Assembly: GCA_021162205.1 (NCBI GenBank)
Contig: JAGGZE010000079.1
Location: 29,189 to 93,188, forward strand
Direction of reading: 5' to 3'
DNA length: 64,000 nt
Source of the DNA: a bacterium
GTDB lineage: Bacteria > UBP14 > UBA6098 > B30-G16
The position numbers and the translations under genes were made by a program. The notes beneath the pieces are model-generated. The model was not told where the DNA came from and ran no database searches. It was given only the letters and a program-made list of their open reading frames with translations. Shown here one piece after another: positions 7,750-24,000 of this stretch; the first letter of the stretch is position 1; every line of letters starts with the position of its first letter.

Positions 7750-9831
7750 ATGAAAAAAATAATTTTCCTTTGTGCGATTATTATTACGGTCTTGAGTGCA
7801 TCTGCTTTTCGCGATATTATTTTTCTTCACAATGGCGAAGAAGTTAGATGCAATGTGAAAAAAATCGATAGCAAAACAATAGTTGTCGAAACTATCGATG
7901 GCACGAAGAAATTTTCTAAATCCGATGTTATTAGACTCACGATGACTCATCCGCGCATGGGCGATAATTGGGAAACGATGAAAGATATCGACGATTCGCT
8001 TCTGTTAGCGACAATCGAAAAAGTAGGCGAGGCGAAAAAGTATCCCAGTGCATCCTCGATTACGCTGTATCACTCGATAGATTATACATTCGATTCCGAT
8101 AGAAGTTGCCGAGAAACTGTGCGGAAAATAATTTTAATTCTCAACGAGCGTGGAAAGAATATGAATTCCACGAGTTTATTTCAATTTATCGAGCCGAATC
8201 AAACAGGCGATGTGGATTTCTGTCGAACTATAATCATTGCCGATAGTTCGATATATCATCTCGACGATGCCGCACTCGAATTTGCAGAACCGAGTTCACA
8301 ATATCCGCAGTATAATTTTCGGAGACGAATCAAATTTGCTCCACCGCAGATGTCTATCGGTGCGGTTATAGATTTTCAATACCATATCGACCAGAAAATC
8401 ACCGACCCGATTCATCCGCTTGTGGCAAAAGTTATTTTCGGGGATAGTGAACCGATATTGCATAAAGAGTTTAAAATTTCCATTCCCAAAAATATTTCGG
8501 AGAATTTCATTAAATATACAGGATATTTGCCGCCGATTCAAAAAAGCGAAAATGGGGCGAATGTATATCTATGGGAAAAAGATGATATTGCACCGACAGT
8601 TCGCGAGAACTGGCAAGCGCCATTCGAGATGTTTCTGCCGACTGTTTGGGTCGGTTTCGGCATAGATGAGGGAAAATTATTGAAAGCGCTTTCCGATTCG
8701 TTTAATATCGCCCTCGATGGCTCACCGCAACTCGATGCTTTGGTCGATTCATTGACTCAAAATGCGAAAACGTCGAAGGAAAAGTTCGATAAAATTTATG
8801 AATATCTTAATCTATCGTTTCGCAAAGCTTATGTTGGAATGGGTAGCTGTAAATATTTTCCAAGAAAAGTATCCGATATATTCAGTGATGGCATAGCCAA
8901 TAACCTCGATATTTCGGTTCTTATGTGTTATATGTTGAATCATCTCGGTATCGAATCGAAATTGGTTTTGGGGTCGAGCATTTTAAATAATTCCGCTATT
9001 TCCAATATTCCATCATTGAGTTTTTTTAGTTCGCCATCGACTGCTGCTAAAATCGGCGGCAAATGGATTTTCGCAAATCCGATGTCGAAATATTCTCCAT
9101 CGAATATAATATCGTCGAATTTTGCTGGACAACAAGCTCTATGGATTGGGAAAAAGTCTGTGCAGATGGCTAAATCGCCATACAATCCACTCGATATATA
9201 TACCGATACCGACACACTATGGATTTTGCTTAAACCCAATGGCGATGCCGATGTTAAGGAAAAAAATGTTTATGGTCTCGCTAATGGTATCAGCACTAAA
9301 TATTACCGTGAAACTCAAAAGGAGCAACTCGATAATTATTTCCAAACATCTGCGGGGGATTTTCATCCGGGTGCGAGTCTAATCGATTATTCAATTATCG
9401 GGCTGAATGGACTCGATTCTAATGCTGTTATAAATGAAAATATTTCCGCGCCGAATTTGGCTCAAACAGCAGGTAAAAAACTTCTCGCATTTCAAATCCC
9501 CGGACTCGAATACAATGCGGGTGGATTCGGTCAACCTATGCGTAAAACACCGATTTGGCATTCGACTCCGAGTGTGTATAACTGTATCTGGATTATAAAA
9601 TTACCTGAAAAATATAAACCCGATTATATTCCCGAACCGCTGTCTATAAAACTCGACTCGCTGACATACGATTTGAGTTTCAAGTATGACAAAGTTAGTC
9701 GATCGCTTACGGTTATCGAGCATTCCGAGCGCACCGATAGGTTTGTTCCCGTCGATGATTATCAGAAATTGCGTGCTGCAATGTTTCAGCGTGCAAAGGG
9801 CTCGAAAAAATGGATTGTCCTGGAAAAGTAA
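7750..9831 (+). CDS. DUF3857/transglutaminase-like domain protein (secreted)
   Basis: Signal peptide. Central segment GMGSCKYFPRKVSDIFSDGIANNLDISVLMCYMLNHLGIESKLVLG has transglutaminase-like core architecture (Cys ... followed by the GIxxR/K-like helix). 693 aa. Confidence 0.45.
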   Translation: MKKIIFLCAIIITVLSASAFRDIIFLHNGEEVRCNVKKIDSKTIVVETIDGTKKFSKSDVIRLTMTHPRMGDNWETMKDIDDSLLLATIEKVGEAKKYPSASSITLYHSIDYTFDSDRSCRETVRKIILILNERGKNMNSTSLFQFIEPNQTGDVDFCRTIIIADSSIYHLDDAALEFAEPSSQYPQYNFRRRIKFAPPQMSIGAVIDFQYHIDQKITDPIHPLVAKVIFGDSEPILHKEFKISIPKNISENFIKYTGYLPPIQKSENGANVYLWEKDDIAPTVRENWQAPFEMFLPTVWVGFGIDEGKLLKALSDSFNIALDGSPQLDALVDSLTQNAKTSKEKFDKIYEYLNLSFRKAYVGMGSCKYFPRKVSDIFSDGIANNLDISVLMCYMLNHLGIESKLVLGSSILNNSAISNIPSLSFFSSPSTAAKIGGKWIFANPMSKYSPSNIISSNFAGQQALWIGKKSVQMAKSPYNPLDIYTDTDTLWILLKPNGDADVKEKNVYGLANGISTKYYRETQKEQLDNYFQTSAGDFHPGASLIDYSIIGLNGLDSNAVINENISAPNLAQTAGKKLLAFQIPGLEYNAGGFGQPMRKTPIWHSTPSVYNCIWIIKLPEKYKPDYIPEPLSIKLDSLTYDLSFKYDKVSRSLTVIEHSERTDRFVPVDDYQKLRAAMFQRAKGSKKWIVLEK

Positions 9832-9853
9832 AGGAAACAATAGGCGGGTTATT

Positions 9854-10054
9854 ATGTGTGAAGAGATATGCAATGAATGTGGCAGAAGCGTGAAATTTGG
9901 CTCCGGACTTTTCGTCAATAGGGTCGTTAGCTTGAATGATGTAGAGACGCGAATTGAAATGGACAAGCCATTTCCAGAAGGCGATTTCATCTGCCCTGAG
10001 TGTGAAATATTAATACAAGAAATCTCCCGTTCATGGGGTCATAAAAAATGTTAG
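9854..10054 (+). CDS. Small zinc-ribbon protein (66 aa, CNEC...CPEC)
   Basis: MCEEICNECGRSVKFG...DFICPECEIL has two CxxC pairs. It sits at the left edge of the compositionally atypical island. Confidence 0.45.
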   Translation: MCEEICNECGRSVKFGSGLFVNRVVSLNDVETRIEMDKPFPEGDFICPECEILIQEISRSWGHKKC

Positions 10055-10175
10055 AGATAAAGGAATCGCAAACAGAAGATATGTTTATCACTCAATCGAA
10101 TTAAGTGAGTAAATATGGATAGTTTTATGAATACCCTATATTACGGCAAAAACCAGAAAAATATTGGAGAATAAA

Positions 10176-10919
10176 ATGGCAATAACAGAAGTCCTAATCG
10201 AAACTGAGAATCAAGAGATTTTAATAAAATTACCAATAACCAGACCTACTGGAAAAGTACGAGTCAAAAGGAGGGAGAGAGGTTTTGGAGAACCAGTTGC
10301 AACCAGACAATATCCAATGTTAGATTCTGATTACATTGAATGGCAGATAGGTTATGATACAAATAAAATTGAAAAACCCACTGTCGTCCGTGAATTGATT
10401 GTTCCTAAAACAAATGAAACAAGATATGGATATGAATTATCTAAAATTATCTGGGACGCAAGGAGAATTGGAATTTTGAATGATGATGATTTTGACGAGC
10501 TTGATAAATTCATTAATAATATAAATAATACAGATACACTCGAGGAAAATGAAGAAATTGTTTTACAAAAAACAAACACGGAGGTTTTGGGCGGATTTAT
10601 AAAAGCAATTCAAAAGGTTCCTGTGTTTATTAAGAATAATGGTGAATATTTTGTGGAGATAAAATTAGAGCATAAACAAAGAGCAGTTGGCCTTCAGGCA
10701 ATGATATATTTATGTATTTGGCTCAGATATTGCGAAGATGATGCTGGCAATCAAATTCTGAATAGGAACGCAGAAATGAAAGAAATGTGCACCTACAAAA
10801 TAGATATATCGAAAAAGGATTTGATAAAAGATGTAATAAAAGCATTCGCTATCGCTTCACAAAAACATAAGCGTGATATTGGATTAATTGTGCAACAAGT
10901 GAGGGAAAAATGCAGCTAA
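10176..10919 (+). CDS. Hypothetical protein; candidate restriction endonuclease partner of the downstream methyltransferase (context only)
   Basis: RBS ggaga 5 nt upstream. The stop overlaps the start of the MTase gene by 10 nt (translational coupling). CpG-poor foreign composition. Possible ExK element GEYFVEIKLE. No recognisable family. Confidence 0.45.
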   Translation: MAITEVLIETENQEILIKLPITRPTGKVRVKRRERGFGEPVATRQYPMLDSDYIEWQIGYDTNKIEKPTVVRELIVPKTNETRYGYELSKIIWDARRIGILNDDDFDELDKFINNINNTDTLEENEEIVLQKTNTEVLGGFIKAIQKVPVFIKNNGEYFVEIKLEHKQRAVGLQAMIYLCIWLRYCEDDAGNQILNRNAEMKEMCTYKIDISKKDLIKDVIKAFAIASQKHKRDIGLIVQQVREKCS

Positions 10920-12385
10920 AGACGGAATATAATTCCCAGCAAAGCACAAGACACTTCAGACACAAGGAGAAAATACTTGGGCAATTCTGGACACCCTATG
11001 AGATTGCCGAGTTTATAGTCAGGCTTTGCACAAAATTCGTTAGCGGAAACGAATTTGCGATGGACCCAGCTTGCGGGGATGGTGTTTTTCTTGAAAGCGC
11101 AAAAAATGTTGGATTTGAAAAGATTATAGGCATAGACATAGACGATTCTGTTTTGGCTCATGCAAATAATGAATTTAAAAAAAATATTATTATCGCTGAT
11201 GCCTTGAAAATGAAGGAATTTGATAATTCTGCTGATCTGGTAGTAGGTAATCCACCATTTTCTTCAAAATATGGGAAGCTTGTTGAAAAGCAAATACTGA
11301 GAAAATATGATATTTCAAGAGGAAAAAAAGCACAGAGTTTGGAAATTTTATTCCTTGAGAAATTCATTCGTCTTGCTAAAAAAGATGGGATGATTGGAAT
11401 AATTCTTCCAATGGGCATATTTGCAAATACAAATCTTGGATATGTCCGAGACTACATTCTGAAAAATATTCAATTGGAAGTCCTCATTTCTCTTCCAAGA
11501 AGTATTTTCCGAAGCTTGCATGTAAAAACTACTTCAAAAACGATTGTTATGATAGGAAAGAGAAATAATGGGGGGCATAAGGGGAAAGTCCTAATGAGTA
11601 TCCTAAGTGATATTTCTCAATTACATAAATCCAGCATAGATGATTTAGGTGGTGAATTTGTCGAATTAGAAGACAATGTTTTATATCCTGAATACTATCT
11701 CAATAGATTAAAGCTCAAAGCGGATTTCCGACTCGACGAAATTGTTGAAATGAAAAATGGCTATGCTGAATATGGGGAAAAGAGAAAATTTGGTGCAAAC
11801 GGGAAACATTTGATTACTGCAAAGAATGTGACCAGATATGGAATAGACTACAATAGATCAAAAAAGATTGTTACACCTGGCTCTTCTATGGATAGGGAAA
11901 GCGCATATGTATTTGTCGAGGATATTGTCTTTGTCAGGGTGGGTGAAGGATGCATGGGGCGAGCTGCAGTAATTGCAGAAAAGGAGGATGAAGGAATAGC
12001 AGATGATTGGATTTACATTTTAAGAAAAGCTGGACTATTCAGCAATGATATTAGCCCATATTACATAGCCCTTTATCTGCAAACTCCTTTAATCCAAAAG
12101 GAAATTAGAAGTTTATCAAGGGGTGTGGGCACTCCTACAATACCCAGAAGAGAACTGGCAAAAATTCCCATGTTAATAGATAATGAACTTAACGAAAAAG
12201 CTGAAGAAATATATAAAAGAATTCGTTTGTTATACAAAAACGGGAAGAAAAATGAAGCTGAATCATTGCTAACCCAATCATTAAAGAATATTGAGCGAAT
12301 AATATTACAGCAATCATCTTTGGTGAACGAGCAAAAAGAATTCCCGAATTCCCAAGCTCTTCTCTCAACGATACGATTGATATAA
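10910..12385 (+). CDS. N6-adenine DNA methyltransferase, gamma-class (TaqI/Eco57I-like) with fused C-terminal target-recognition domain
   Basis: Motif X GQFWTPYEIAEF, motif I MDPACGDGVF, motif IV VVGNPPF and FLEKFIRLAKKDGMIGIILP are present. A roughly 250-aa C-terminal TRD-like region follows. 491 aa. Confidence 0.8.
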   Translation: MQLKTEYNSQQSTRHFRHKEKILGQFWTPYEIAEFIVRLCTKFVSGNEFAMDPACGDGVFLESAKNVGFEKIIGIDIDDSVLAHANNEFKKNIIIADALKMKEFDNSADLVVGNPPFSSKYGKLVEKQILRKYDISRGKKAQSLEILFLEKFIRLAKKDGMIGIILPMGIFANTNLGYVRDYILKNIQLEVLISLPRSIFRSLHVKTTSKTIVMIGKRNNGGHKGKVLMSILSDISQLHKSSIDDLGGEFVELEDNVLYPEYYLNRLKLKADFRLDEIVEMKNGYAEYGEKRKFGANGKHLITAKNVTRYGIDYNRSKKIVTPGSSMDRESAYVFVEDIVFVRVGEGCMGRAAVIAEKEDEGIADDWIYILRKAGLFSNDISPYYIALYLQTPLIQKEIRSLSRGVGTPTIPRRELAKIPMLIDNELNEKAEEIYKRIRLLYKNGKKNEAESLLTQSLKNIERIILQQSSLVNEQKEFPNSQALLSTIRLI

Positions 12386-12709
12386 TAAGCCAAAAGGATA
12401 AAAAGCGAGCATTAGAGGTTGCAGCTTTCTATATTGACCTATTCGATTCTATTTCAAATGTATCCAAAGTCATTAAGACGGGTGGCTATGCCTGTTATGT
12501 AATCGCAAACAGAAAAGTAAAAAACACAACTCTCCCAACCGATAGCGCAATTCGAGATTTCTTTGAATATTTTGGATTCCAGCACATCGATACATTCGAG
12601 CGTTCGATTCCAAACAAGCGAATGGCATTGCGAAATAGTCCTTCAAATATTCCAGGTGAAGTGGATAATACGATGGTAAAAGAATTTATTATCGTTATGA
12701 AAAAAATAT
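12293..12709 (+). pseudogene. Start-less ORF resembling an internal/C-terminal fragment of a second DNA methyltransferase (remnant)
   Basis: The +2 frame is open for 139 codons, overlapping the 3' end of the MTase gene, with no ATG/GTG/TTG start until codon about 110. ...FYIDLFDSISNVSKVIKTGGYACYVIANRKV... parallels the FxExxxxxLKxGGxxxxVxP post-motif-IV segment of gamma-class MTases. Confidence 0.25.
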
Positions 12710-12782
12710 AATCGTCAAATCGACCTTGTCAAATTTCATTTTTTTATTATTTTTCATAAAATTTAATTCAGGAATTAACATT

Positions 12783-13262
12783 ATGAAAGTTCTCGGAATA
12801 GACCCTGGCACAAGAATATTGGGCTGGTGCGTAGTCGATGGCAACAGGCGGATGCAGAAATTTATCGCCGGCGGAATATATCGTGTCGGTGCGAAAAAAA
12901 CCGAGCGCGGACTTTTGAAAATTTACGATGCGGTTTCTGAACTTATCGAGAAATTCTCTCCCGATATTCTCGTGCTCGAAAGTCCTTTTTTCGGGATGAA
13001 TGCTCGCACACTGATTCGTCTCGGTGAGGCACGAGGTGCGATTTTAGTCGCTGGTTCACACAGAGATATTCCTATCGAAAGTATATCTCCCGCCGAGGCG
13101 AAACTCGCTCTCACGGGCAATGGCAATGCCACAAAAGAACAGGTAGCATATATGGTGAAAAATATTCTGAAACCCGATATGGAACTTACTCTCGATGCCT
13201 CCGATGCCGCCGCTGTGGCGATAGCGTATCTTCATAGAAAAGAATTCGATTTACGAACATAG
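12783..13262 (+). CDS. ruvC: Crossover junction endodeoxyribonuclease RuvC
   Basis: MKVLGIDPGTRILGWCVV... LVLESPFFGMNARTLIRLGEARGAIL matches the RuvC catalytic core. 159 aa. Confidence 0.9.
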   Translation: MKVLGIDPGTRILGWCVVDGNRRMQKFIAGGIYRVGAKKTERGLLKIYDAVSELIEKFSPDILVLESPFFGMNARTLIRLGEARGAILVAGSHRDIPIESISPAEAKLALTGNGNATKEQVAYMVKNILKPDMELTLDASDAAAVAIAYLHRKEFDLRT

Positions 13263-15264: not shown

Positions 15265-16452
15265 ATGAAATTCGATTTTGGACTTTTCGCAATAGCATTG
15301 GCACTTTCGCTCATCGGGATTGTGATTATCTATTCCGCTGTTGTCGGAACAGGTCTCGAGATGTTATATCTCCGCCAGTCGGCATTTTTGCTTATTGGAA
15401 TCGGCGTGATGTTTTTCCTTTGGCGGATTCCTGTTAGAATCCACGATGGACTCGCTTATGTCTATTACATCTCGATTATAATTCTGCTCGCTCTGACATT
15501 GTTTCAGGGCGCCGATGTCAAAAGATGGCTCGGTATAGGGATGTTCAAATTGCAACCGTCTGAATTTTCAAAATTGATTATGGTGTTTGCACTCGGCAGA
15601 TGGCTTCGAGACCATCTTAAAGATGTCGATTCGATTTTTATAATCATGGCTTCGATTTTTTTGATAATCCCGCCGTTTTTCCTCGTAGTTCGCGAACCCG
15701 ACCTCGGCACAGGAATCGTCTTTTCGGTGTTGCTTTTTGTGATGCTCTATGCCGCAGGAACTCGTCCGCTATATCTTTTTCTGCTTCTGACACCACTTCT
15801 TGCGATGGTCAGTGCAGTCCACTGGATTGTTTGGCTTGTGTATTTCCTGATTCTGATATTTATCCTTATCCGATGGCGAGTGTCCCCCGGATTATTCATC
15901 GGTGTTATAATTATAGCGATTTTCATCGGCGTATCTACACCGTATGTCTGGTCGAAACTACATCCATATCAGCGTGAGCGAATTATGGTATTTCTAAATC
16001 CTCATCACGACCCATTCGGTGCGGGTTATCAGTTGATTCAATCGAAAATCGCAATCGGTTCGGGTGGAATACTCGGCAAGGGTTTGCTCGAAGGCACACA
16101 GACAAAACTGGCATTTTTACCCGCTAAACATTCCGATTTTGCATTTTCGGTGCTCGGTGAACAGTTCGGTTTCATCGGAACAATCGTTCTACTGTTTCTA
16201 TTCTGGTTGCTGTTGATGAAAATTCTCGCACTATCACGGCTGGCAAGAACACCGTTCGCATCGATTGTTACGATGGGAATAGCGGGTATAATATTTTTTC
16301 AAGTTTTCATCAATATTGCAATGACATTAGGTCTCGCACCGATTACGGGGATTCCGCTGCCATTTATATCCGCTGGTGGGTCGTCGCTGATTTTATTCTG
16401 GGCGATGGTCGGTGTTCTACAAAATATCCGCTCACAGATTGTAGAAATATAA
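15265..16452 (+). CDS. SEDS-family peptidoglycan glycosyltransferase (RodA/FtsW)
   Basis: Ten TM segments. GAGYQLIQSKIAIGSGGILGKGL and FAFSVLGEQFGFIGTIVLL are SEDS signatures. No mrdA or ftsI is adjacent, so the RodA-versus-FtsW assignment is open. Confidence 0.8.
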   Translation: MKFDFGLFAIALALSLIGIVIIYSAVVGTGLEMLYLRQSAFLLIGIGVMFFLWRIPVRIHDGLAYVYYISIIILLALTLFQGADVKRWLGIGMFKLQPSEFSKLIMVFALGRWLRDHLKDVDSIFIIMASIFLIIPPFFLVVREPDLGTGIVFSVLLFVMLYAAGTRPLYLFLLLTPLLAMVSAVHWIVWLVYFLILIFILIRWRVSPGLFIGVIIIAIFIGVSTPYVWSKLHPYQRERIMVFLNPHHDPFGAGYQLIQSKIAIGSGGILGKGLLEGTQTKLAFLPAKHSDFAFSVLGEQFGFIGTIVLLFLFWLLLMKILALSRLARTPFASIVTMGIAGIIFFQVFINIAMTLGLAPITGIPLPFISAGGSSLILFWAMVGVLQNIRSQIVEI

Positions 16453-16490
16453 ACGATTTATCTAATATGTGAGATTAAACTAATTATTGT

Positions 16491-16859
16491 TTAATCATTT
16501 TCTTTTGGATTTGTTCCATAATCATTTTCACCTGATTCGCTATCGGTGCACATCAGAACCAGCAGCCAAATAGGACCGATAAAAGGAATCAATGAAATAA
16601 GTATAAACCAACCGCTTTTGCCGATATCGTGTAATCTTCTGACCGAAACCGCTAAACCGGGTATAAAAACCGCTAAACAATATAATAGATATATTGGACC
16701 ATATCCAACATTTTCAATGGCTATTCCAATAATATTATCGAGTATCATTGCAACAAAAGAAAAAATTATATTGAATAAAACAAACATCCAATATTCTTTT
16801 CGTCTCGCTCGCCCACTGAATACGGCATAATTCTTTAATACTTTTACATACCAACTCAT
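16491..16859 (-). CDS. DUF805 family inner-membrane protein (YhaH-like)
   Basis: RRKEYWMF ... VRRLHDIGKSGWFILISLIPFIGPIWLLVL ... NDYGTNP matches DUF805. Confidence 0.8.
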   Translation of the reverse strand: MSWYVKVLKNYAVFSGRARRKEYWMFVLFNIIFSFVAMILDNIIGIAIENVGYGPIYLLYCLAVFIPGLAVSVRRLHDIGKSGWFILISLIPFIGPIWLLVLMCTDSESGENDYGTNPKEND

Positions 16860-17020
16860 AGTTTTCCTCCTTTTAATTTTGAATTCTAGGTCATTATATC
16901 GATAAAATTCACAATGTCAAATGAATTTTAAAAATATAATTGCGAATTTTTGTCTTGGAAATTGAATTTGCATCGATTAAATATATACTTGGAAATTGAA
17001 ATCTCGATTAGGAGGCAAAA

Positions 17021-17851: not shown

Positions 17852-18023
17852 GAGGCATCTCCTGATGCCGATTTATCCCGATGCCGATTACACAATTATA
17901 TCAAGGTCAGGAGACCTCTCCTACACAAAACAAACGATATAAAAAAGGGCAGCGATACCAAAATCACTGCCCCAATTTTTTCTATATTATTGTTTTGGAA
18001 TATCCGCTATTTCTATTCCCCGA

Positions 18024-21000
18024 TTATCGCACCAACAAAGCTTTTTGAGTAATTTCACCATTTGCAGTGTTAAGTCTGATTAAATACAATCCAGCGGGCA
18101 TATCCTCATTGGAATCGCCGGTGCCATCCCAAACAGTCGAGTAAATACCACTGTTAACCTCGCCAGCGAATAGATGTTTCGATATATGCCCATTCAAATC
18201 CAGCACATCGATTGTAGCATAAGTGTTCGCAGCGGTTTTGAATGCGATATTTGTCGATGAATTGAACGGTGTAGGATACACTTTCATCGTAAGTGATTTC
18301 GGTAATAGTGAATTGTTATCGAGAGATGGTGGAGGTGGAGGAGTTCCTGTCTCGATATTTCCCGATGCAAACCCACGGAAAAATCCCGCATAAGTTCTAT
18401 CGATTGTGTATTCGCCATCGCCGCTGACAAATATCCAGTATCCATTACCCGGTTCGAGAAGTGGTGCGGTCGAATATCCAGTGCCGCCATCGTAAGCGAA
18501 TGCGGGTGGAACAATCGAACCAGCGGGTTCGGTATGTATCGAACCCAATGGGTATCCACTCGGTATCATCGGAGAACCGACCAATAACCAGCCATATGTG
18601 AAATCGCCCGTTATATGAAATACTGGAATGCCTGAAATATTTACATCGACATCTGCGATAGAATAAAGCCAATAACCGATTCCGGATTCGATAGAATCGA
18701 CAACATCGTATGCTCCAAGTTCGTTATCGTATTCGAATAGAGCGAGACCGCTCGGGAACAAGTTTTGCCACGAATTAGTTTCGGGAATAATCGGCAGTGA
18801 AATTAAATTCCATCCGCGGTGAAGTGAAATAGTGCAATTAACATCGTCGTCATCGCTCGGGTCGTTCGGGTCTGTGCCGAGTGCGACCTCATCGCCATCT
18901 GAAAGACCGCCGTCATCACTATCCGAATTGTGTGGGTCGGTGTGATTCTCGTATTCCGCAAGATTATTCAAACCATCGCCATCGTCATCGCGATTGGCAA
19001 GTCCCCTGATTGTATCCGAGCCGAAGAAATAATTTTCCCAATCATCGGCTATCCTATCGCCATCTTCATCCATATCAGAATTCGGGTCGAGAATAGGCGA
19101 TGCGATTTCTGAAAGGTCTGAAACACCATCACCATCGCTGTCGAGATTGTTCGGGTCGGTTCCAGCAAGATATTCATTGCGATTATTCACTAAGTCGCTG
19201 TCCGCATCGTCGGTCGGCTCGCAGAATTCGGGACCATCGAAATAGAAATTCTCCCACCAATCTGGAATGCCATCGCCATCTTGGTCTGCAACATCATAAA
19301 ATGCTGAAACGATTGTATCCGGCACACTCAAATTCAACGATGAGTCCACAGCGACAATAGTAAGGACATAATCTGCACCGGGCATAAGTTTTTCCGCAGT
19401 ATATTCGGATAGGTCGCCCGACAACTGAGTTTGCAGGAAAACATCGCCATCTGTATTGCTTATAGTCAGCGAATAAGAATAGACATCGTCATCGCCAGTC
19501 CAGTATATTGTCAGCAAACGCTCGGCAATGTTTGGAACGGTATAGTCGAAAGCAACTGCTGGTGGAATCGTATCCCGTTCTGTCGGGTCGAGACCTGTTG
19601 GGGAAACGACATATATTTCGCTTTCATTTCCCGCGTTGTCATACGCAGAAATCCCGAATACAAAGGACTCTCGCAAACTATCGGCGAGCATAACCTTTGC
19701 ATTATCGAAAAGGAAATAATTTGCATTTGCGACATCGTTAGTTTCCCACCAATCTACACTGCCGCCATCGTTCCAGCCCTTGTATACTTTATATCCAGCG
19801 ACATCGGGTTCGGAACATCGCTGCCAGGTGAATCTGATATTTTCATCATCGACCCACGATGCGATTGCAAAGCCCGGTGCCGAAGGTGCTATCAAATCTT
19901 CGGGGAAATGAATGTTCGTTGCATCATCGGTGAAATCTGCAAATCGATTAAGATTATCCTCGGCGTAAGCCATCAATTTATAATCTCCCTCGACAAAACC
20001 GAGTTGGTCGAATGTGAAAGATGTATCGATTGTGAAATCGCCCGTCAGCATCATCTCTGCGATAGGTCTCCCACCTGCATCGACATCATCGGGTTTAAGC
20101 ATAATCGTGAGATATACTGTGTCATCCGCATCGACACCGTCGACTGCGCCGGAAATATCGAAACCATCGGGTTGCAACTCTGTCGAGAGAGCGAGCGACA
20201 TCGGGTTGTGGAAACCCTTAACTTGAACTGGATGGTCGCTGTCGCCAGCTGGCAGTCCCGAAAGATGAACTGTCCAGACACCGGAAATGTTTCGCTTAAT
20301 CATCATCCCGCGATAGAAATGGCCATCGTAATAACCCTCGATTCTGACAAGTGGTGCATCGTCGTCGAACGAGCAGGAATCGAGTGTGATAATATCGCCA
20401 TCTGGGGTTTCGATAGACATATTCGGTCTAACATCGCTATCGGTTCGCACAGTGAACAGATTCATATCTGTCGAACCGAGTTCATATCGAATATCCTCGT
20501 CGGCTGTTGCATCTTTATAGAATGTTCGATACATTTCCATCGCATTGTAGGATTCGGCATCGCCGAGCAGCGAAACATGACCATCTATGTATGCAATCGA
20601 TGGTCTAAGTCCGAAGAAATTGAGATATGCTTCGCCCTTGACACCCCAATGTCCACCGGAATCGCCGCCGTGTCTAAATTCTCCATAATAAAGTGTGCCG
20701 TCGACCTCGATATCATGTGTCGGGAACAGCCATGCGATAGCGTGATGCTGGATATGAACCTCTACGCCGGAGTTTCCAGTAAGATGAAATCTCCCAGCGG
20801 GTTCACGCCACATCGAAAGTTCGGTTCCTCCGCGTGCCCATATATAATCGTTGATTCCAGTTCGAAGATTCGCATATCCATTAAGCGCCCATCCGCCACC
20901 GCCATAGTTCCACCAGTATCGAAATCCTGCCGAACCGCGAGCGAGATTATTGAGAAATCTGACATCGCCATTGAATGCGAACATATCCTCGCCGAAATCT

Positions 21001-24000
21001 ATCGAGACAGTCGGTTCCATTCTCACAACCGAGCCGAAATAAGGCACAGATGGTCCGCCGGAAAGTTGACAACCGAACTCGATATATAGATTTTCAGGTT
21101 CTGTTATGTGGTCGACCTCACCCTCGACACCTGTCAGGAAGAAACCTGTCGCCCCTAATGGTATTCCAGGGCTGAAACCCATAAATTCAAGTCTGACATC
21201 GTCGATACCGGCATCGCGAATGATTGTTACATAAGCACCGATGTATGTCTCGCTGCCGAGGTCCGGCATAAGTCCTGAAATCGATAATCTTCCACCGCCG
21301 GAGAATCTTGTTATTTCGCCATCGTCCCATACCAATCGCAATTTCGCTTTTCGGATTCCGACTGTATGCCCGCCAGCAGGGAATACGAAATCTGGGAATG
21401 TAATCGCAAGGTCTAAATCGATAAGTTCGCCGTGATATATCGCCAGAGACCTCGCATTTATCTCGAAATAACCGCCACTTATGAATGTAGTCGATGGAAT
21501 CAGCGATGAATTGACTTTAAGATAAATCTGACTCGCCTCGATTGTATCGTTATTAACATATAAATCGTGGAATTTGAACTTGAAAGCATTATCCCATAGA
21601 CCGAGTTCAAAATCTTCGATAAAATATTCGACAGTGCCATCGTAATAGCTTCTGCGATGAATTCCGACAGACCCCATAAAGTTAGCACCATTATTGATAG
21701 AGATTTCACCCGAAATATCCCAGTATCCATTATCGACATCGATTTCCGCCGGGTCGAGCGAAATGGAATATGCGAACGGTGCACCGAGCAGTGAATCGGG
21801 TGTGATTTTGTCTCGAATCGAATCTGGAAGCATATCTGTCGATGGGTCGAAACGGAATTTGATTCCCCAATATGTGAGGTCGAATGCGCCGCCATAGACA
21901 TACGGTTTCGAGCCATCCTCGTGAACAAATCTCGCTACACCCGTTCCTGCTGCTACATCGAGGTCGATATACGCCCCGACCTCGCCGATAGAACCTATCA
22001 TCGCAATCGTGTCGCCCAAATCGTTCACGAGACGGATGTTGCCATAAATTCTATCGCCATCGATATTGTCTGAACAAATTTGATACGAGCCATAATCGAC
22101 GCAGGTCATCTCTGCCCAGGCAGTTCCATTAAGCGAAATTGTGTATTCGCCGACTTCGGATTGAACAATCAAAGTCCCAACATAAGCGGTTGCAGAAGAA
22201 TATGGACAAAATCGAATCGTGATATATTTCCATGAATCGGGATTAACTGTGAATGTGTCATTTCCTGTTATCGTGAATGCTCCCGAACCGAGAAGTATCA
22301 TTCCATTAACTCTTATAGGACTCGTGCCATTATTCCGCACCGTAATTCTTTTACTCTGGCAGTCACTGAAACTGACACTGTCGAATTCGAGACTTGTCGG
22401 GGTGAGTGATAAATCGGACATCGGTGTTTCAACACCGGTTCCTCTGAGTGGCGCACTTCTAATCGGAGTATGCGGGTCGTTCGAGAATATCGCCATAATG
22501 GCATCGATTTCACCTGTATAGGTCGGGCAGAATTGAACCTCGATTGTGTCCCATTCACCAGGAGCAATTGTCATAGGTTCGGGAACCGACGCTGAATAAT
22601 TTGCATCGACAATCATAACGGAATCGATTATTAGATTTGCATCGCCGACATTTCCGACAGCGAGGTATTGCGGACCGCATCCACCGACAGAGACCTCGCC
22701 GAATTCGAGTATCGCAGGTGTTATCGTGATTTGTGCTCCGAGTGGTGCATAAACCCAGATTGTAACATAGGCAGTATCGACAGCACCGCAGGCATCGAGC
22801 GTAATCAATGAAACATTATATGTGCCGGCGGTATTATATATATGCTCTACCGATGATGTCGTATCTGTCGAGCCATCGCCGAAATTCCATACTCGTGAAA
22901 CCACGATGCCTGTGGAACTATCCAAGAATGAAACTGTCAATGGAGCATTGCCCGATACAGTAGAGACCGAAATATTAGCGGTCAATTCAGGGCAACCGAC
23001 CGTGATTTCGACAGTCGATGTCTCTGTTATGCAGAAATTCGACGCCACAAGCATTGCCTCATAATTTCCGGGAACAGTATATATATGAACGATAGAATCC
23101 TCGGTCGAGCTTTCGCCATCACCGAAATAAATAGTGAAATTATCCACCGAACCTGTGCTTTGATTTTTTAACATTACATTTAGAGGTGCGGTGCCCGTTG
23201 TCGGGAAAGCGTAAAGACTTGCAGAAAGTTCATCGCAGCAATTTTTATCGAATTTTATATCGTGGTCATCGGCGGAAAAAATATTTTCCCATACGATTAC
23301 AGGACAACCACCAGGAGCTTCATTTGAAACAGCGATAGCGGGGAATATCTCGTAAGCGGTAGACTCGTCGGAAACATCTACATCGCTACCCCAGTATCCA
23401 CCGAATGGACAGGATTCAAATTCGATTTTCCCTTGTTTCCAATATGCTATCATAAACGAGTTTTCGCCGGCAGCGATGTCTGCAAATTTCTCATTATAAA
23501 AAGAATAAGTAACCGAGCCATTTTCCCAGGTAGTTCCACCATCGGTTGTGTGAATATATTTAATATCGTGGTCGGAATCCGAACATTTGTATGTATAAAC
23601 AACCATCGCCTCATCGCCATTCGCAGCGATTCTGGGATATGCTCCAGTCGATGCGATATTAGCTCCAGCACTCCAACTCGCACCATAATCCGAACTTGTA
23701 GCAGACCAGATAGCACCTGTTTCATCGGCATTGGTTTGCGTTACTACTGCGAGTTTCCCGCTTCCAAGATATGCAATATCGCAATATTCAGCACCTTGGT
23801 TTGTGAAATCTACTTGTGTCCAAGTTATCCCAAAATCTGTCGAGCGAGCAAGATGAACATCGGTATCGAACATACCATTGCAAATATATGCCGCATATAG
23901 ATAATAGTATGAGTCGGTATCGGTGATAATTTTCGCCCTTCGTTTTCCAGACAATGCCGAACCATCGATAGAATGGGCTTCTCCACCACTACCCGTGAAA

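What the first reader, a model, noticed from the sequence alone, without database searches (positions are those of the whole stretch)
9854..12709. Compositionally foreign restriction-modification-like island: zinc ribbon, unknown 247-aa protein, TaqI-like gamma-class methyltransferase and a methyltransferase remnant
Between a housekeeping surface-protein gene and ruvC the sequence abruptly loses the host's CpG-rich codon bias. The island encodes a gamma-class N6-adenine methyltransferase with a fused target-recognition domain (motifs X-I-IV in TaqI/Eco57I order). It is translationally coupled to an upstream 247-aa protein of no recognisable family, which could be a new or highly divergent Type II endonuclease or specificity/controller partner. 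A small CxxC...CxxC zinc-ribbon protein precedes the island. The 110-nt leader at 10055-10175 contains a short inverted repeat (actca...tgagt) that could be an operator.
Basis: partly seen in the sequence, partly recalled or inferred. Interest (0 to 1): 0.5.

Follow-up and report, generated by a model that had tools for sequence, protein, structure and literature searches.

The report
PabI-type base-excising restriction-modification cassette
The "unknown" 247-aa protein belongs to the known R.PabI family of restriction enzymes, which cut out a base instead of cutting the DNA backbone; it sits next to its usual methyltransferase in a foreign two-gene cassette that overwrote an older restriction-modification cluster, so this is a well-defined but ordinary new member of a known family.

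Summary
The ORFs, coordinates and foreign composition are confirmed.

- **Restriction enzyme.** The 247-aa protein (10176-10919) is an R.PabI-family (HALFPIPE) restriction DNA glycosylase. It matches Pfam PF09522 above threshold and PDB R.PabI at E=1e-32 over its full length. The AF2 model matches only R.PabI/R.CcoLI folds. All three catalytic and ten base-contacting residues are conserved.
- **Methyltransferase.** The 491-aa protein (10910-12385) is an M.PabI-type gamma N6-adenine enzyme, 46% identical over its full length to a Pyrococcus M.PabI homologue. It overlaps R by 10 nt.
- **Already annotated.** The exact proteins are in NCBI nr as "R.Pab1 family restriction endonuclease" and "N-6 DNA methylase".
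- **Likely mechanism.** M makes GTm6AC. R excises adenine from unmethylated GTAC.
- **Flanking relics.** The zinc-ribbon ORF, a 17-codon gene stub in the "leader", and the 3' methyltransferase remnant come from an older MvaI/BcnI-type cluster. A relative (L021) still has the intact 425-aa methyltransferase at this locus. The R-M cassette (~10100-12312) replaced the middle of that cluster.
- **Inverted repeat.** The leader repeat is no more than chance.
- **Gene order.** R-then-M, overlapping, differs from the two published arrangements.

Verdict: new member of a known kind.

The parts
9854..10054 (+). 66-aa zinc-ribbon ORF (CxxC...CxxC). It is a relic or companion of an older MvaI/BcnI-type cluster, not a component of the PabI system.
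   Evidence: About 50 homologues at 56-79% identity. In L102 and L103-L106 the homologue lies directly upstream of a 340-aa gene (weak NucS-like and HTH hits) that in L102/L103 is followed by an MvaI_BcnI endonuclease gene. No homologue lies next to R in the surveyed loci outside the window's own lineage. It is absent from the orthologous locus in L021. No Pfam or PADLOC family reaches threshold.
10048..10104 (+). 5' stub (17 residues after the Met, then a stop) of the 340-aa gene that normally follows the zinc-ribbon gene.
   Evidence: The translation MLEIKESQTEDMFITQSN* matches residues 3-17 of the L103/L102 340-aa proteins (73% and 67% identity). Its position relative to the zinc-ribbon stop is about the same as in those loci (here the ATG overlaps the stop; there the gene starts 2-3 nt after it). 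DNA 10063-10085 is 91% identical to L103 911-933.
10105..10175 (+). Junction and 5' untranslated region of the R gene, of unknown origin. A GGAG Shine-Dalgarno sequence lies at 10166-10169, 6 nt before the ATG.
   Evidence: Read from the sequence. No homology to L001, L021 or the zinc-ribbon loci. No sigma-70-like promoter or terminator was found here.
10176..10919 (+). R gene: 247-aa PabI-family (HALFPIPE) restriction DNA glycosylase, predicted to be specific for GTAC.
   Evidence: Pfam PF09522, E=1.6e-13. PDB 2dvy R.PabI, E=1.1e-32 over residues 5-238; 7cfa R.CcoLI, E=6.5e-22. PADLOC REase_II, E=4e-36. AF2 pLDDT 93.9; Foldseek TM 0.77-0.89 to R.PabI and R.CcoLI only. Catalytic Y60/H231/D234 and base-contact K27, R29, E55, Q57, I58, Q168, Q174, M176, Y178, F224 are conserved and invariant in 22 homologues (residue roles from PMC7806768). 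dN/dS 0.19 against L001.
10910..12385 (+). M gene: 491-aa M.PabI-type gamma-class N6-adenine methyltransferase with a C-terminal target-recognition domain. It overlaps R by 10 nt. Its last ~24 codons (12313-12385) are read from relic DNA in another frame.
   Evidence: Pfam N6_Mtase 2e-24 and Eco57I 2.6e-12. PADLOC MTase_II PDLC03311, 460 bits over 3-463 of 464. 46% identity over 457 aa to the methyltransferase next to R.PabI in Pyrococcus kukulkanii (L019), including the target-recognition domain. dN/dS 0.17 against L001. The C-terminal junction is shown.
12313..12711 (+). 3' relic (equivalent to codons 294-425) of a resident PF01555 DNA methyltransferase with motif I N-terminal and motif IV SPPY towards the C-terminus. 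It has no start codon.
   Evidence: 72.7% aa identity to residues 294-425 of the intact 425-aa methyltransferase at the orthologous position in L021. That L021 protein hits PF01555 at E=1.4e-10. 87.8% nt identity to L015. Homologues lie next to MvaI_BcnI endonuclease genes in L008, L009 and L012. Composition is host-like.

Best explanation
Window ~10100-12312 is a horizontally acquired two-gene Type II restriction-modification cassette of the PabI family.

**Mechanism**
- Shown: the downstream gene encodes an M.PabI-type gamma-class N6-adenine methyltransferase.
- Shown: the upstream gene encodes a HALFPIPE-fold restriction DNA glycosylase.
- Inferred: the methyltransferase converts host GTAC to GTm6AC.
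- Inferred: the glycosylase binds unmethylated GTAC as a homodimer, flips out the adenine and hydrolyses its N-glycosidic bond.
- Inferred: the resulting paired abasic sites become strand breaks through beta-elimination or host AP endonucleases.
- Inferred: the lysine that gives R.CcoLI its strong AP-lyase activity is an arginine here (R82). The enzyme may therefore be mainly monofunctional, even though it has the CcoLI-like beta-sheet insertion.
- Shown: the two genes overlap by 10 nt. Inferred: they are co-transcribed and translationally coupled, either from the short upstream region or by read-through from the preceding genes.

**History**
- The ancestral locus held a PF01555 methyltransferase between the DUF3857/transglutaminase gene and ruvC. 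The relative L021 still has it intact.
- In this lineage, codons 1-293 of that gene are gone.
- In their place lie a zinc-ribbon gene, a 17-codon stub of its usual 340-aa partner, and the PabI cassette.
- The cassette therefore overwrote the middle of an older MvaI/BcnI-type restriction or defence cluster. The order of the individual events is not resolved.
For: **Family membership of R**
- The catalytic triad and all ten base-recognition residues are conserved (roles from PMC7806768, read).

**Family membership of M**
- It aligns over its full length, including the target-recognition domain, with a Pyrococcus M.PabI homologue at 46% identity.
- PADLOC gives a full-length 460-bit match.

**Both genes look functional**
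- Both are intact.
- Both are under purifying selection against an 83%-identical copy in a different genomic context (L001, next to a peptidase M19 gene). dN/dS is 0.19 for R and 0.17 for M.

**Foreign origin**
- Composition is extreme relative to the rest of the window.
- Homology with L001 starts exactly at the R start codon.
- The relative L021 has an intact methyltransferase gene instead.

**GTAC specificity**
- GTAC occurs only twice in 64 kb against 63 expected, and one of the two sites lies inside R itself.
- In the short loci sampled, PabI-carrying loci from other bacterial lineages show fewer GTAC sites than expected, while three loci without PabI show little or none. Pyrococcus (L019) carries PabI but is not depleted.

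**Origin of the relics:**

**Prior annotation:** NCBI annotates the exact sequences as an R.Pab1 family restriction endonuclease and an N-6 DNA methylase.
Against: - No biochemical or methylome data exist. Specificity and activity are inferred from residue conservation.
- GTAC avoidance is not specific to this system. GATC, CTAG, GGCC, ACGT and CATG are avoided just as strongly. The relative L021, which lacks the cassette at this locus, also has 0 GTAC against 21 expected.
- R lies upstream of M, with no controller gene and no upstream methyltransferase. How the system establishes itself safely in a new host is unexplained.
- No promoter was identified.
- The native C-terminus of M was replaced by ~24 codons of out-of-frame relic DNA. 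This could in principle affect function, although homologues end at about that point.
- The AP-lyase lysine is not conserved (R82).
Confidence: 0.85

Rival explanations
1. The restriction gene is inactive or on its way to decay, and the methyltransferase acts as a de facto solitary (epigenetic) GTAC methylase.
For: R.PabI homologues are frequently disrupted in Helicobacter and Campylobacter (PMC4615327; PMC10273834). R precedes M with no obvious safeguard. The AP-lyase lysine is replaced by R82.
Against: The R ORF is full length. All 13 catalytic and base-contact residues are intact. dN/dS is 0.19 against L001. The AF2 model is confident (pLDDT 93.9). The near-identical contigs L016-L018 and L022 all keep R intact.
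Confidence: 0.1
2. The pair is a PabI-family system but recognises a sequence other than GTAC.
For: R is only 35-41% identical to Pyrococcus R.PabI and belongs to an environmental branch that has not been characterised. Many homologues in that branch carry a second, beta-class methyltransferase, which a simple palindromic m6A system would not need.
Against: All ten residues assigned to G, T, A and C recognition are invariant across 22 diverse homologues. R.CcoLI, at 27% identity in the structural alignment, still cuts GTAC (PMC7806768). The target-recognition domain of M is well conserved with the Pyrococcus M.PabI homologue. GTAC is depleted in this host and in most other hosts sampled.
Confidence: 0.1
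3. One reading: the 247-aa protein is a new or highly divergent Type II endonuclease, or a specificity or controller partner, of unknown family. The zinc ribbon and leader operator would belong to the same system.
For: NCBIfam has no model for the protein. The Pfam model covers only its C-terminal half.
Against: There is a full-length match to solved R.PabI at E=1e-32. Only the HALFPIPE fold is returned by Foldseek. The protein is already named in nr. The zinc ribbon belongs with a different gene set. The inverted repeat is at chance level.
Confidence: 0.01
4. The zinc-ribbon protein has been co-opted as a regulator of the R-M operon, in the way a controller protein would act.
For: The ORF is intact with all four cysteines. 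It lies 121 nt upstream on the same strand, and no terminator is predicted between it and R.
Against: In the surveyed loci it is not found next to R outside the window's own lineage (L016-L018, L022). Its conserved partner elsewhere is the 340-aa gene, of which only a stub remains here. PGAP apparently did not call it: the protein accessions run consecutively from the upstream gene to R.
Confidence: 0.04

Closest known systems
PabI restriction-modification system of Pyrococcus abyssi (R.PabI, PDB 2DVY/3WAZ; M.PabI)
   Same: R shares the HALFPIPE fold (TM 0.77-0.89). It keeps the catalytic Tyr/His/Asp and all base-recognition residues. M is a gamma-class N6-adenine methyltransferase with a C-terminal target-recognition domain, 46% identical to a Pyrococcus M.PabI homologue. 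R is closer in sequence to the archaeal enzyme (E=1e-32) than to R.CcoLI (E=6.5e-22).
   Different: The host is an unclassified bacterium ('[bacterium]' in NCBI) with 40% GC, not a hyperthermophilic archaeon. The genes are co-directional in the order R then M with a 10-nt overlap, whereas the archaeal pair is tail-to-tail (PMC4615327; L019). R has an 18-aa insertion after the catalytic Tyr that R.PabI lacks.
R.CcoLI / R.HpyAXII systems of Campylobacter and Helicobacter (PDB 7CFA)
   Same: R carries an insertion of similar length right after the EWQIGYD motif, modelled as beta-strands 71-77 and 82-85. The Asp next to the catalytic Tyr (D61, equivalent to CcoLI D53) is present. The query-normalised TM score is highest against 7cfa (0.83).
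   Different: The gene order in Campylobacterales is M then R; here it is R then M. The AP-lyase lysine (CcoLI K71, PabI K73) is R82 here. Those methyltransferases are shorter (PMC4615327).
Environmental three-gene operons M1(beta-class PF01555)-R-M2(gamma), e.g. the Elusimicrobia MAG locus L005-L007 and L002-L004
   Same: These are the closest larger group of homologues: R is 45-50% identical and M2 42-47% identical. R and M2 have the same overlapping order.
   Different: The upstream beta-class methyltransferase M1 is missing in the window and in L001, L032, L038 and L039. As far as the papers I read go, this operon type is not described in the PabI literature.

Membership tests
PabI family restriction DNA glycosylase (HALFPIPE, Pfam PF09522) | Full-length sequence homology to R.PabI | tested here: met
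   PF09522 scores 51.3 bits against a cutoff of 25. 2dvy matches at E=1.1e-32 over query residues 5-238. PADLOC REase_II matches at E=4e-36.
PabI family restriction DNA glycosylase (HALFPIPE, Pfam PF09522) | HALFPIPE fold | tested here: met
   The AF2 model has pLDDT 93.9 and pTM 0.91. The 16 significant Foldseek PDB hits are all R.PabI or R.CcoLI chains, with TM up to 0.89. This rests on a predicted structure, not a solved one.
PabI family restriction DNA glycosylase (HALFPIPE, Pfam PF09522) | Catalytic triad Tyr68/His211/Asp214 (R.PabI numbering) | tested here: met
   The equivalents Y60, H231 and D234 are invariant in the 22-sequence alignment. Residue roles come from PMC7806768.
PabI family restriction DNA glycosylase (HALFPIPE, Pfam PF09522) | Ten base-recognition residues for G, T, A and C of GTAC | tested here: met
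   K27, R29, E55, Q57, Y178 (G); Q174, M176 (T); I58, F224 (A); Q168 (C). All are conserved.
PabI family restriction DNA glycosylase (HALFPIPE, Pfam PF09522) | Adjacent adenine methyltransferase homologous to M.PabI | tested here: met
   The overlapping downstream gene is 46% identical over 457 aa to the methyltransferase next to R.PabI in Pyrococcus.
PabI family restriction DNA glycosylase (HALFPIPE, Pfam PF09522) | Methyl-sensitive excision of adenine at GTAC | not testable with these tools
   This needs a glycosylase assay or a methylome. Indirect support only: GTAC is found 2 times against 63 expected in the window.
PabI family, published gene arrangements (archaeal tail-to-tail; Campylobacterales M upstream of R) | Gene order and orientation as described in PMC4615327 | tested here: not met
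   R lies upstream of M on the same strand with a 10-nt overlap. The same order occurs in L001 and, with an extra upstream methyltransferase, in about 20 metagenome loci.
Bifunctional (AP-lyase-proficient) HALFPIPE enzymes such as R.CcoLI | Beta-sheet insertion after the catalytic Tyr, plus a lysine equivalent to CcoLI K71 | tested here: inconclusive
   The insertion is present (residues 61-80; strands 71-77 and 82-85 in the model). The aligned lysine is R82. Other lysines (K64, K67, K75) lie in the insertion.
M.PabI-type gamma-class N6-adenine DNA methyltransferase | Motif order X-I-IV with NPPF/Y and a C-terminal target-recognition domain | tested here: met
   DPACGDG (motif I) and GNPPFS (motif IV) are present, with N6_Mtase and Eco57I domains at 17-230 and conserved C-terminal 260-470. 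PDLC03311 matches over its full length.
   No such Pfam, PDB or Foldseek hit was found.
Controller(C)-protein-regulated Type II restriction-modification system | HTH controller gene with an operator inverted repeat upstream | tested here: not met
   No HTH ORF lies in the cassette. The leader inverted repeat is at chance level.
PF01555 (N6_N4) DNA methyltransferase, MvaI/BcnI-linked type (for the remnant) | Orthology to an intact family member | tested here: met
   The remnant is 72.7% identical to residues 294-425 of the L021 425-aa protein, which hits PF01555 at E=1.4e-10 and has SPPY. The remnant alone hits no Pfam family.

The most novel reading that the evidence does not exclude
The cassette may represent a large, uncharacterised environmental branch of the PabI family.
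- NCBI source names among the homologues include Elusimicrobia, WOR-3, Alphaproteobacteria and a methanogen-related archaeon.
- The commonest form among the closest homologues is a three-gene M1(beta)-R-M2(gamma) operon. If that is the ancestral form, the window carries a reduced R-M2 version.

Enzymes in this branch combine the CcoLI-type insertion with loss of the AP-lyase lysine. They could behave differently from all studied members, for example as a strictly monofunctional mesophilic restriction glycosylase that depends on host AP endonucleases, or as part of a dual-methylation system.
Probability: 0.2. Interest if true: 0.5.

Novelty: new member of a known kind. Interest (0 to 1): 0.3.

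Why it matters
Base-excising restriction enzymes are a small, unusual class. The literature describes them as confined to Campylobacterales and a few (hyper)thermophilic archaea and bacteria.

This locus adds three things:
- an intact pair in an unclassified bacterium;
- a third gene arrangement (R then M, overlapping);
- a clear example of one restriction-modification system overwriting another inside a defence hotspot.

For the window itself the result is mainly a corrected annotation. The "unknown partner" is a known enzyme type, and the zinc ribbon, leader and remnant are debris from an earlier system.

The wider survey suggests the family is much more widespread and more varied in architecture than published. 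That may be worth a dedicated study.

Tried and rejected
- **RNA genes.** An Rfam scan of the whole window and a tRNA scan found nothing, so there is no tRNA-linked integration site.
- **Promoters and terminators.** The sigma-70 promoter and terminator scan of 9700-12900 was at shuffle level, with nothing in the leader.
- **Repeats.** Searches found no flanking target duplication at the junctions. One perfect 14-mer (10064-10077 and 12501-12514) lies inside the stub and inside the relic, away from both junctions. Both copies sit in sequence that matches the parent genes elsewhere (L103 for the stub, L015 for the relic), so I treat it as chance.
- **Family libraries.** NCBIfam has no model for R, the zinc ribbon or the remnant. 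Pfam on the remnant alone was uninformative.
- **Viral contigs.** Only 1 distant R relative was found, so there is no sign that phages carry the cassette.
- **Host taxonomy.** NCBI labels the MAG only as 'bacterium'. The one genome relative is an 'uncultured bacterium' MAG.
- **Frameshift fusion.** I considered a -1 frameshift fusion of M with the relic at the A-run 12333-12337. There is no evidence for it, so I dropped it.
- **Relic as a live gene.** I considered that the relic might be an independent functional gene. Its frame is open and its dN/dS against L015 and L021 is ~0.12. However, it has no start codon, so the low ratio more likely reflects divergence accumulated while the genes were intact.
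Full report
**Observation**

The ORF map matches the finding.
- A 693-aa DUF3857/transglutaminase gene ends at 9831.
- A 66-aa CxxC...CxxC ORF lies at 9854-10054.
- A 247-aa ORF lies at 10176-10919, with GGAG 6 nt upstream of its ATG.
- A 491-aa ORF lies at 10910-12385 and overlaps the 247-aa ORF by 10 nt.
- ruvC starts at 12783.
- Between the methyltransferase stop and ruvC, a 138-codon frame (12295-12711) is open but has no ATG, GTG or TTG start.

The compositional break is real. I compared 9832-12320 with every other same-size stretch of the window.

| Measure | 9832-12320 | Rest of window |
|---|---|---|
| CpG O/E | 0.74 | 1.55 +/- 0.15 (minimum 1.02) |
| GC | 0.35 | 0.41 |
| TCGA per kb | 2.8 | 13.5 |

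The stretch is also the most deviant of all in tetranucleotide content. The remnant at 12321-12709 is host-like (CpG O/E 1.45).

**The 247-aa protein**

It is not an orphan.
- It passes Pfam PF09522 (RE_R_Pab1) at 51 bits against a cutoff of 25.
- It matches the R.PabI crystal-structure sequence (2dvy) at E=1.1e-32 over residues 5-238, and R.CcoLI (7cfa) at E=6.5e-22.
- It matches a PADLOC Type II restriction-enzyme profile at E=4e-36.
- An AlphaFold model built on 22 homologues is confident (pLDDT 93.9).
- Foldseek against the PDB returns only R.PabI and R.CcoLI chains (16 hits, TM up to 0.89). The next hit has E=0.07.

R.PabI enzymes are restriction DNA glycosylases. They flip out and excise the adenine of unmethylated GTAC rather than hydrolysing the backbone (PMC7806768, PMC7229829, PMC10273834).

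The conserved residues are as follows (roles).
- The catalytic triad Tyr68/His211/Asp214 corresponds to Y60/H231/D234 here.
- The ten residues assigned to base recognition correspond to K27, R29, E55, Q57, I58, Q168, Q174, M176, Y178 and F224.
- All thirteen are present, and all are invariant columns in my alignment of 22 diverse homologues.

The protein also has an 18-aa insertion right after the catalytic Tyr, modelled as beta-strands. This is the position where R.CcoLI and R.HpyAXII carry the insertion linked to AP-lyase activity. However, the lysine responsible in R.CcoLI (K71) aligns with R82 here. Intrinsic lyase activity is therefore uncertain.

**The methyltransferase**

- It has motif I (DPACGDG) and motif IV (NPPF).
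- It hits Pfam N6_Mtase and Eco57I, and PDB M.TaqI.
- It aligns end to end, including the C-terminal target-recognition domain, with the methyltransferase next to R.PabI in Pyrococcus kukulkanii. Identity is 46% over 457 aa.
- It hits one PADLOC Type II methyltransferase profile over its full length at 460 bits.

It is therefore an M.PabI-type enzyme. Together with R it forms a PabI-family restriction-modification pair.

The exact sequences are already in NCBI nr. MCD6594875.1 is 'R.Pab1 family restriction endonuclease [bacterium]' and MCD6594876.1 is 'N-6 DNA methylase [bacterium]'.

**Are the genes functional?**

Both genes are intact in three 100%-identical contigs and in a 97%-identical (nt) variant.

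An 83%-identical copy (L001) lies in a different context, directly after a peptidase M19 gene. Homology between L001 and the window begins exactly at the R start codon. Between the two copies dN/dS is 0.19 for R and 0.17 for M. These values indicate purifying selection on a mobile two-gene unit.

**Specificity**

The conserved contact residues and the conserved target-recognition domain predict GTAC.

GTAC occurs twice in 64 kb against 63 expected (O/E 0.03, z=-8.8). One of the two sites lies inside R itself. In the short loci I sampled:
- PabI-carrying loci from other bacterial lineages show fewer GTAC sites than expected (0-7 observed against 8-26 expected).
- Three loci without PabI show little or no depletion.
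- The Pyrococcus locus L019, which carries PabI, is not depleted (28 against 21.8).

This evidence is supportive but not specific, for two reasons. The host avoids GATC, CTAG, GGCC, ACGT and CATG just as strongly. The relative L021, which lacks the cassette at this locus, also has no GTAC in 15.5 kb.

**What surrounds the cassette**

*The remnant.* One genome relative (L021; 76-82% nt identity on both flanks) has the same DUF3857 gene and ruvC. Between them it carries a single intact 425-aa PF01555 methyltransferase with motif I N-terminal and SPPY near residue 265. The window's remnant is 72.7% identical to residues 294-425 of that protein. Homologues of this methyltransferase elsewhere lie next to MvaI/BcnI-family endonuclease genes.

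*The zinc ribbon.* It has about 50 homologues. In the loci I could inspect, it lies immediately upstream of a 340-aa gene with weak NucS-like and HTH hits. In L102 and L103 an MvaI/BcnI endonuclease gene follows.

*The leader.* Window 10048-10104 encodes MLEIKESQTEDMFITQSN*. This matches the N-terminus of that 340-aa protein, in about the same position relative to the zinc-ribbon stop.

*A related contig.* The short contig L015 carries the 3' end of the 340-aa gene directly followed by a copy of the same methyltransferase relic, 88% identical in nt.

*Reconstruction.* The zinc ribbon, the stub and the remnant are debris of an older MvaI/BcnI-type cluster. The PabI cassette (left edge between 10096 and 10175, right edge near 12313) replaced its middle. 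The last ~24 codons of M are read from relic DNA in another frame. Homologous methyltransferases end at about that point, so little native sequence was lost. Replacement of other restriction genes by PabI systems has been described before (PMC4615327). I could not resolve whether one or several events produced the present arrangement.

**Comparison with what is known**

The literature describes two arrangements: archaeal tail-to-tail, and M upstream of R in Campylobacterales. It presents the family as largely confined to those groups plus a few others. Here R lies upstream of M on the same strand, overlapping it.

My searches gave the following picture.
- The protein search found 119 homologue clusters.
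- The metagenome scan found at least 447 loci.
- Among 80 retrieved loci, those closest to the window (41-50% identity) mostly carry a three-gene operon: M1 (beta-class PF01555), then R, then M2 (gamma). This includes an Elusimicrobia MAG.
- R-M2 without M1 occurs in the window, L001, L032, L038 and L039.

This extends the family's known range and architecture, but the system type itself is known.

**Rejected elements of the interpretation**

- The leader inverted repeat (5-nt arms) is at chance level: 4 observed against 2.7 +/- 2.2 in shuffles.
- There is no controller-type HTH gene.
- No promoter or terminator stands out.
- No flanking target duplication lies at the junctions.

**Verdict**

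This is a correct detection of a foreign restriction-modification island. Its 'unknown' component is a recognisable and already annotated PabI-family restriction glycosylase.

| Claim | Confidence |
|---|---|
| Family assignment | about 0.95 |
| GTAC specificity | about 0.8 |
| Current activity | about 0.75 |

Novelty: new member of a known kind. Interest 0.3.

Noticed in passing
Loci L046-L101 (except L057, L078, L083, L089, L091), e.g. L053 4923-5738 and L055 4923-5744: A clade of R.PabI-like proteins (35-40% identical to the window R, mostly 267-300 aa) has an N-terminal signal-peptide-like segment, for example MKKLIAILFVLISLALHAFCADADYK. 43 of 45 have the hydrophobic run, and 37 of 45 keep the catalytic and recognition motifs. 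In the ten loci inspected they sit among housekeeping genes (rpsL-fusA, aconitase, an M16-like peptidase). No ORF with methyltransferase motif IV occurs in their flanks (~270 kb of sequence in all), against 22 of 23 control PabI loci that have one. This may be an exported, methyltransferase-less HALFPIPE glycosylase.
   Followed up: partly
L002-L007 and L023-L037 (e.g. L005 5226-8222): Most environmental homologues closest to the window's R lie in a three-gene operon with overlapping genes: a beta-class PF01555 methyltransferase (~240-263 aa), then R, then an M.PabI-like gamma methyltransferase. It is unexplained why a system expected to target a palindrome would need two methyltransferases.
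   Followed up: partly
Whole window 1-64000; also L021: Many 4-bp palindromes are extremely avoided: GATC 8 observed/341 expected, GTAC 2/63, CTAG 3/65, GGCC 7/106, ACGT 4/54, CATG 44/187. In contrast TCGA is very abundant (845 copies) and CpG O/E is 1.55. The relative L021 shows the same pattern.
   Followed up: partly
L009 5129-6402, L011 93-1366, L012 5328-6390; compare L021 7540-8817: The MvaI/BcnI-linked PF01555 methyltransferase is one 425-aa ORF in L021. In two other lineages it is encoded as two adjacent overlapping ORFs: an N part of 233-290 aa that includes SPPY, and a C part of 129-133 aa. All 13 database homologues of the remnant are short (109-184 aa). This could be a split two-subunit enzyme or recurrent frameshift decay; I did not resolve which.
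   Followed up: no
window 12295-12711: The methyltransferase relic is still an uninterrupted 138-codon frame (chance about 0.003 at the window's stop-codon frequency). Its dN/dS is 0.125 against L015 and 0.122 against L021, although both the window and L015 copies lack the N-terminal two-thirds of the gene. An A-run (CAAAAAG, 12332-12338) lies where the M frame and the relic frame are both open.
   Followed up: partly
window 10064-10077 and 12501-12514: A perfect 14-nt direct repeat, AATCGCAAACAGAA, flanks the PabI cassette. One copy lies in the 340-aa gene stub and the other in the methyltransferase relic. Neither lies at a junction, and both sit in sequence that matches the parent genes elsewhere, so this is probably coincidence.
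   Followed up: partly
window ~18000-22600 (minus strand) and 16400-17000: Apart from the island, the next most compositionally deviant stretches are at ~18.8-20.4 kb and ~24.2-24.4 kb; the first falls within a very large (>1500 aa) minus-strand ORF. There is also a GC dip to 0.30 at 16.4-17.0 kb. I did not examine these.
   Followed up: no
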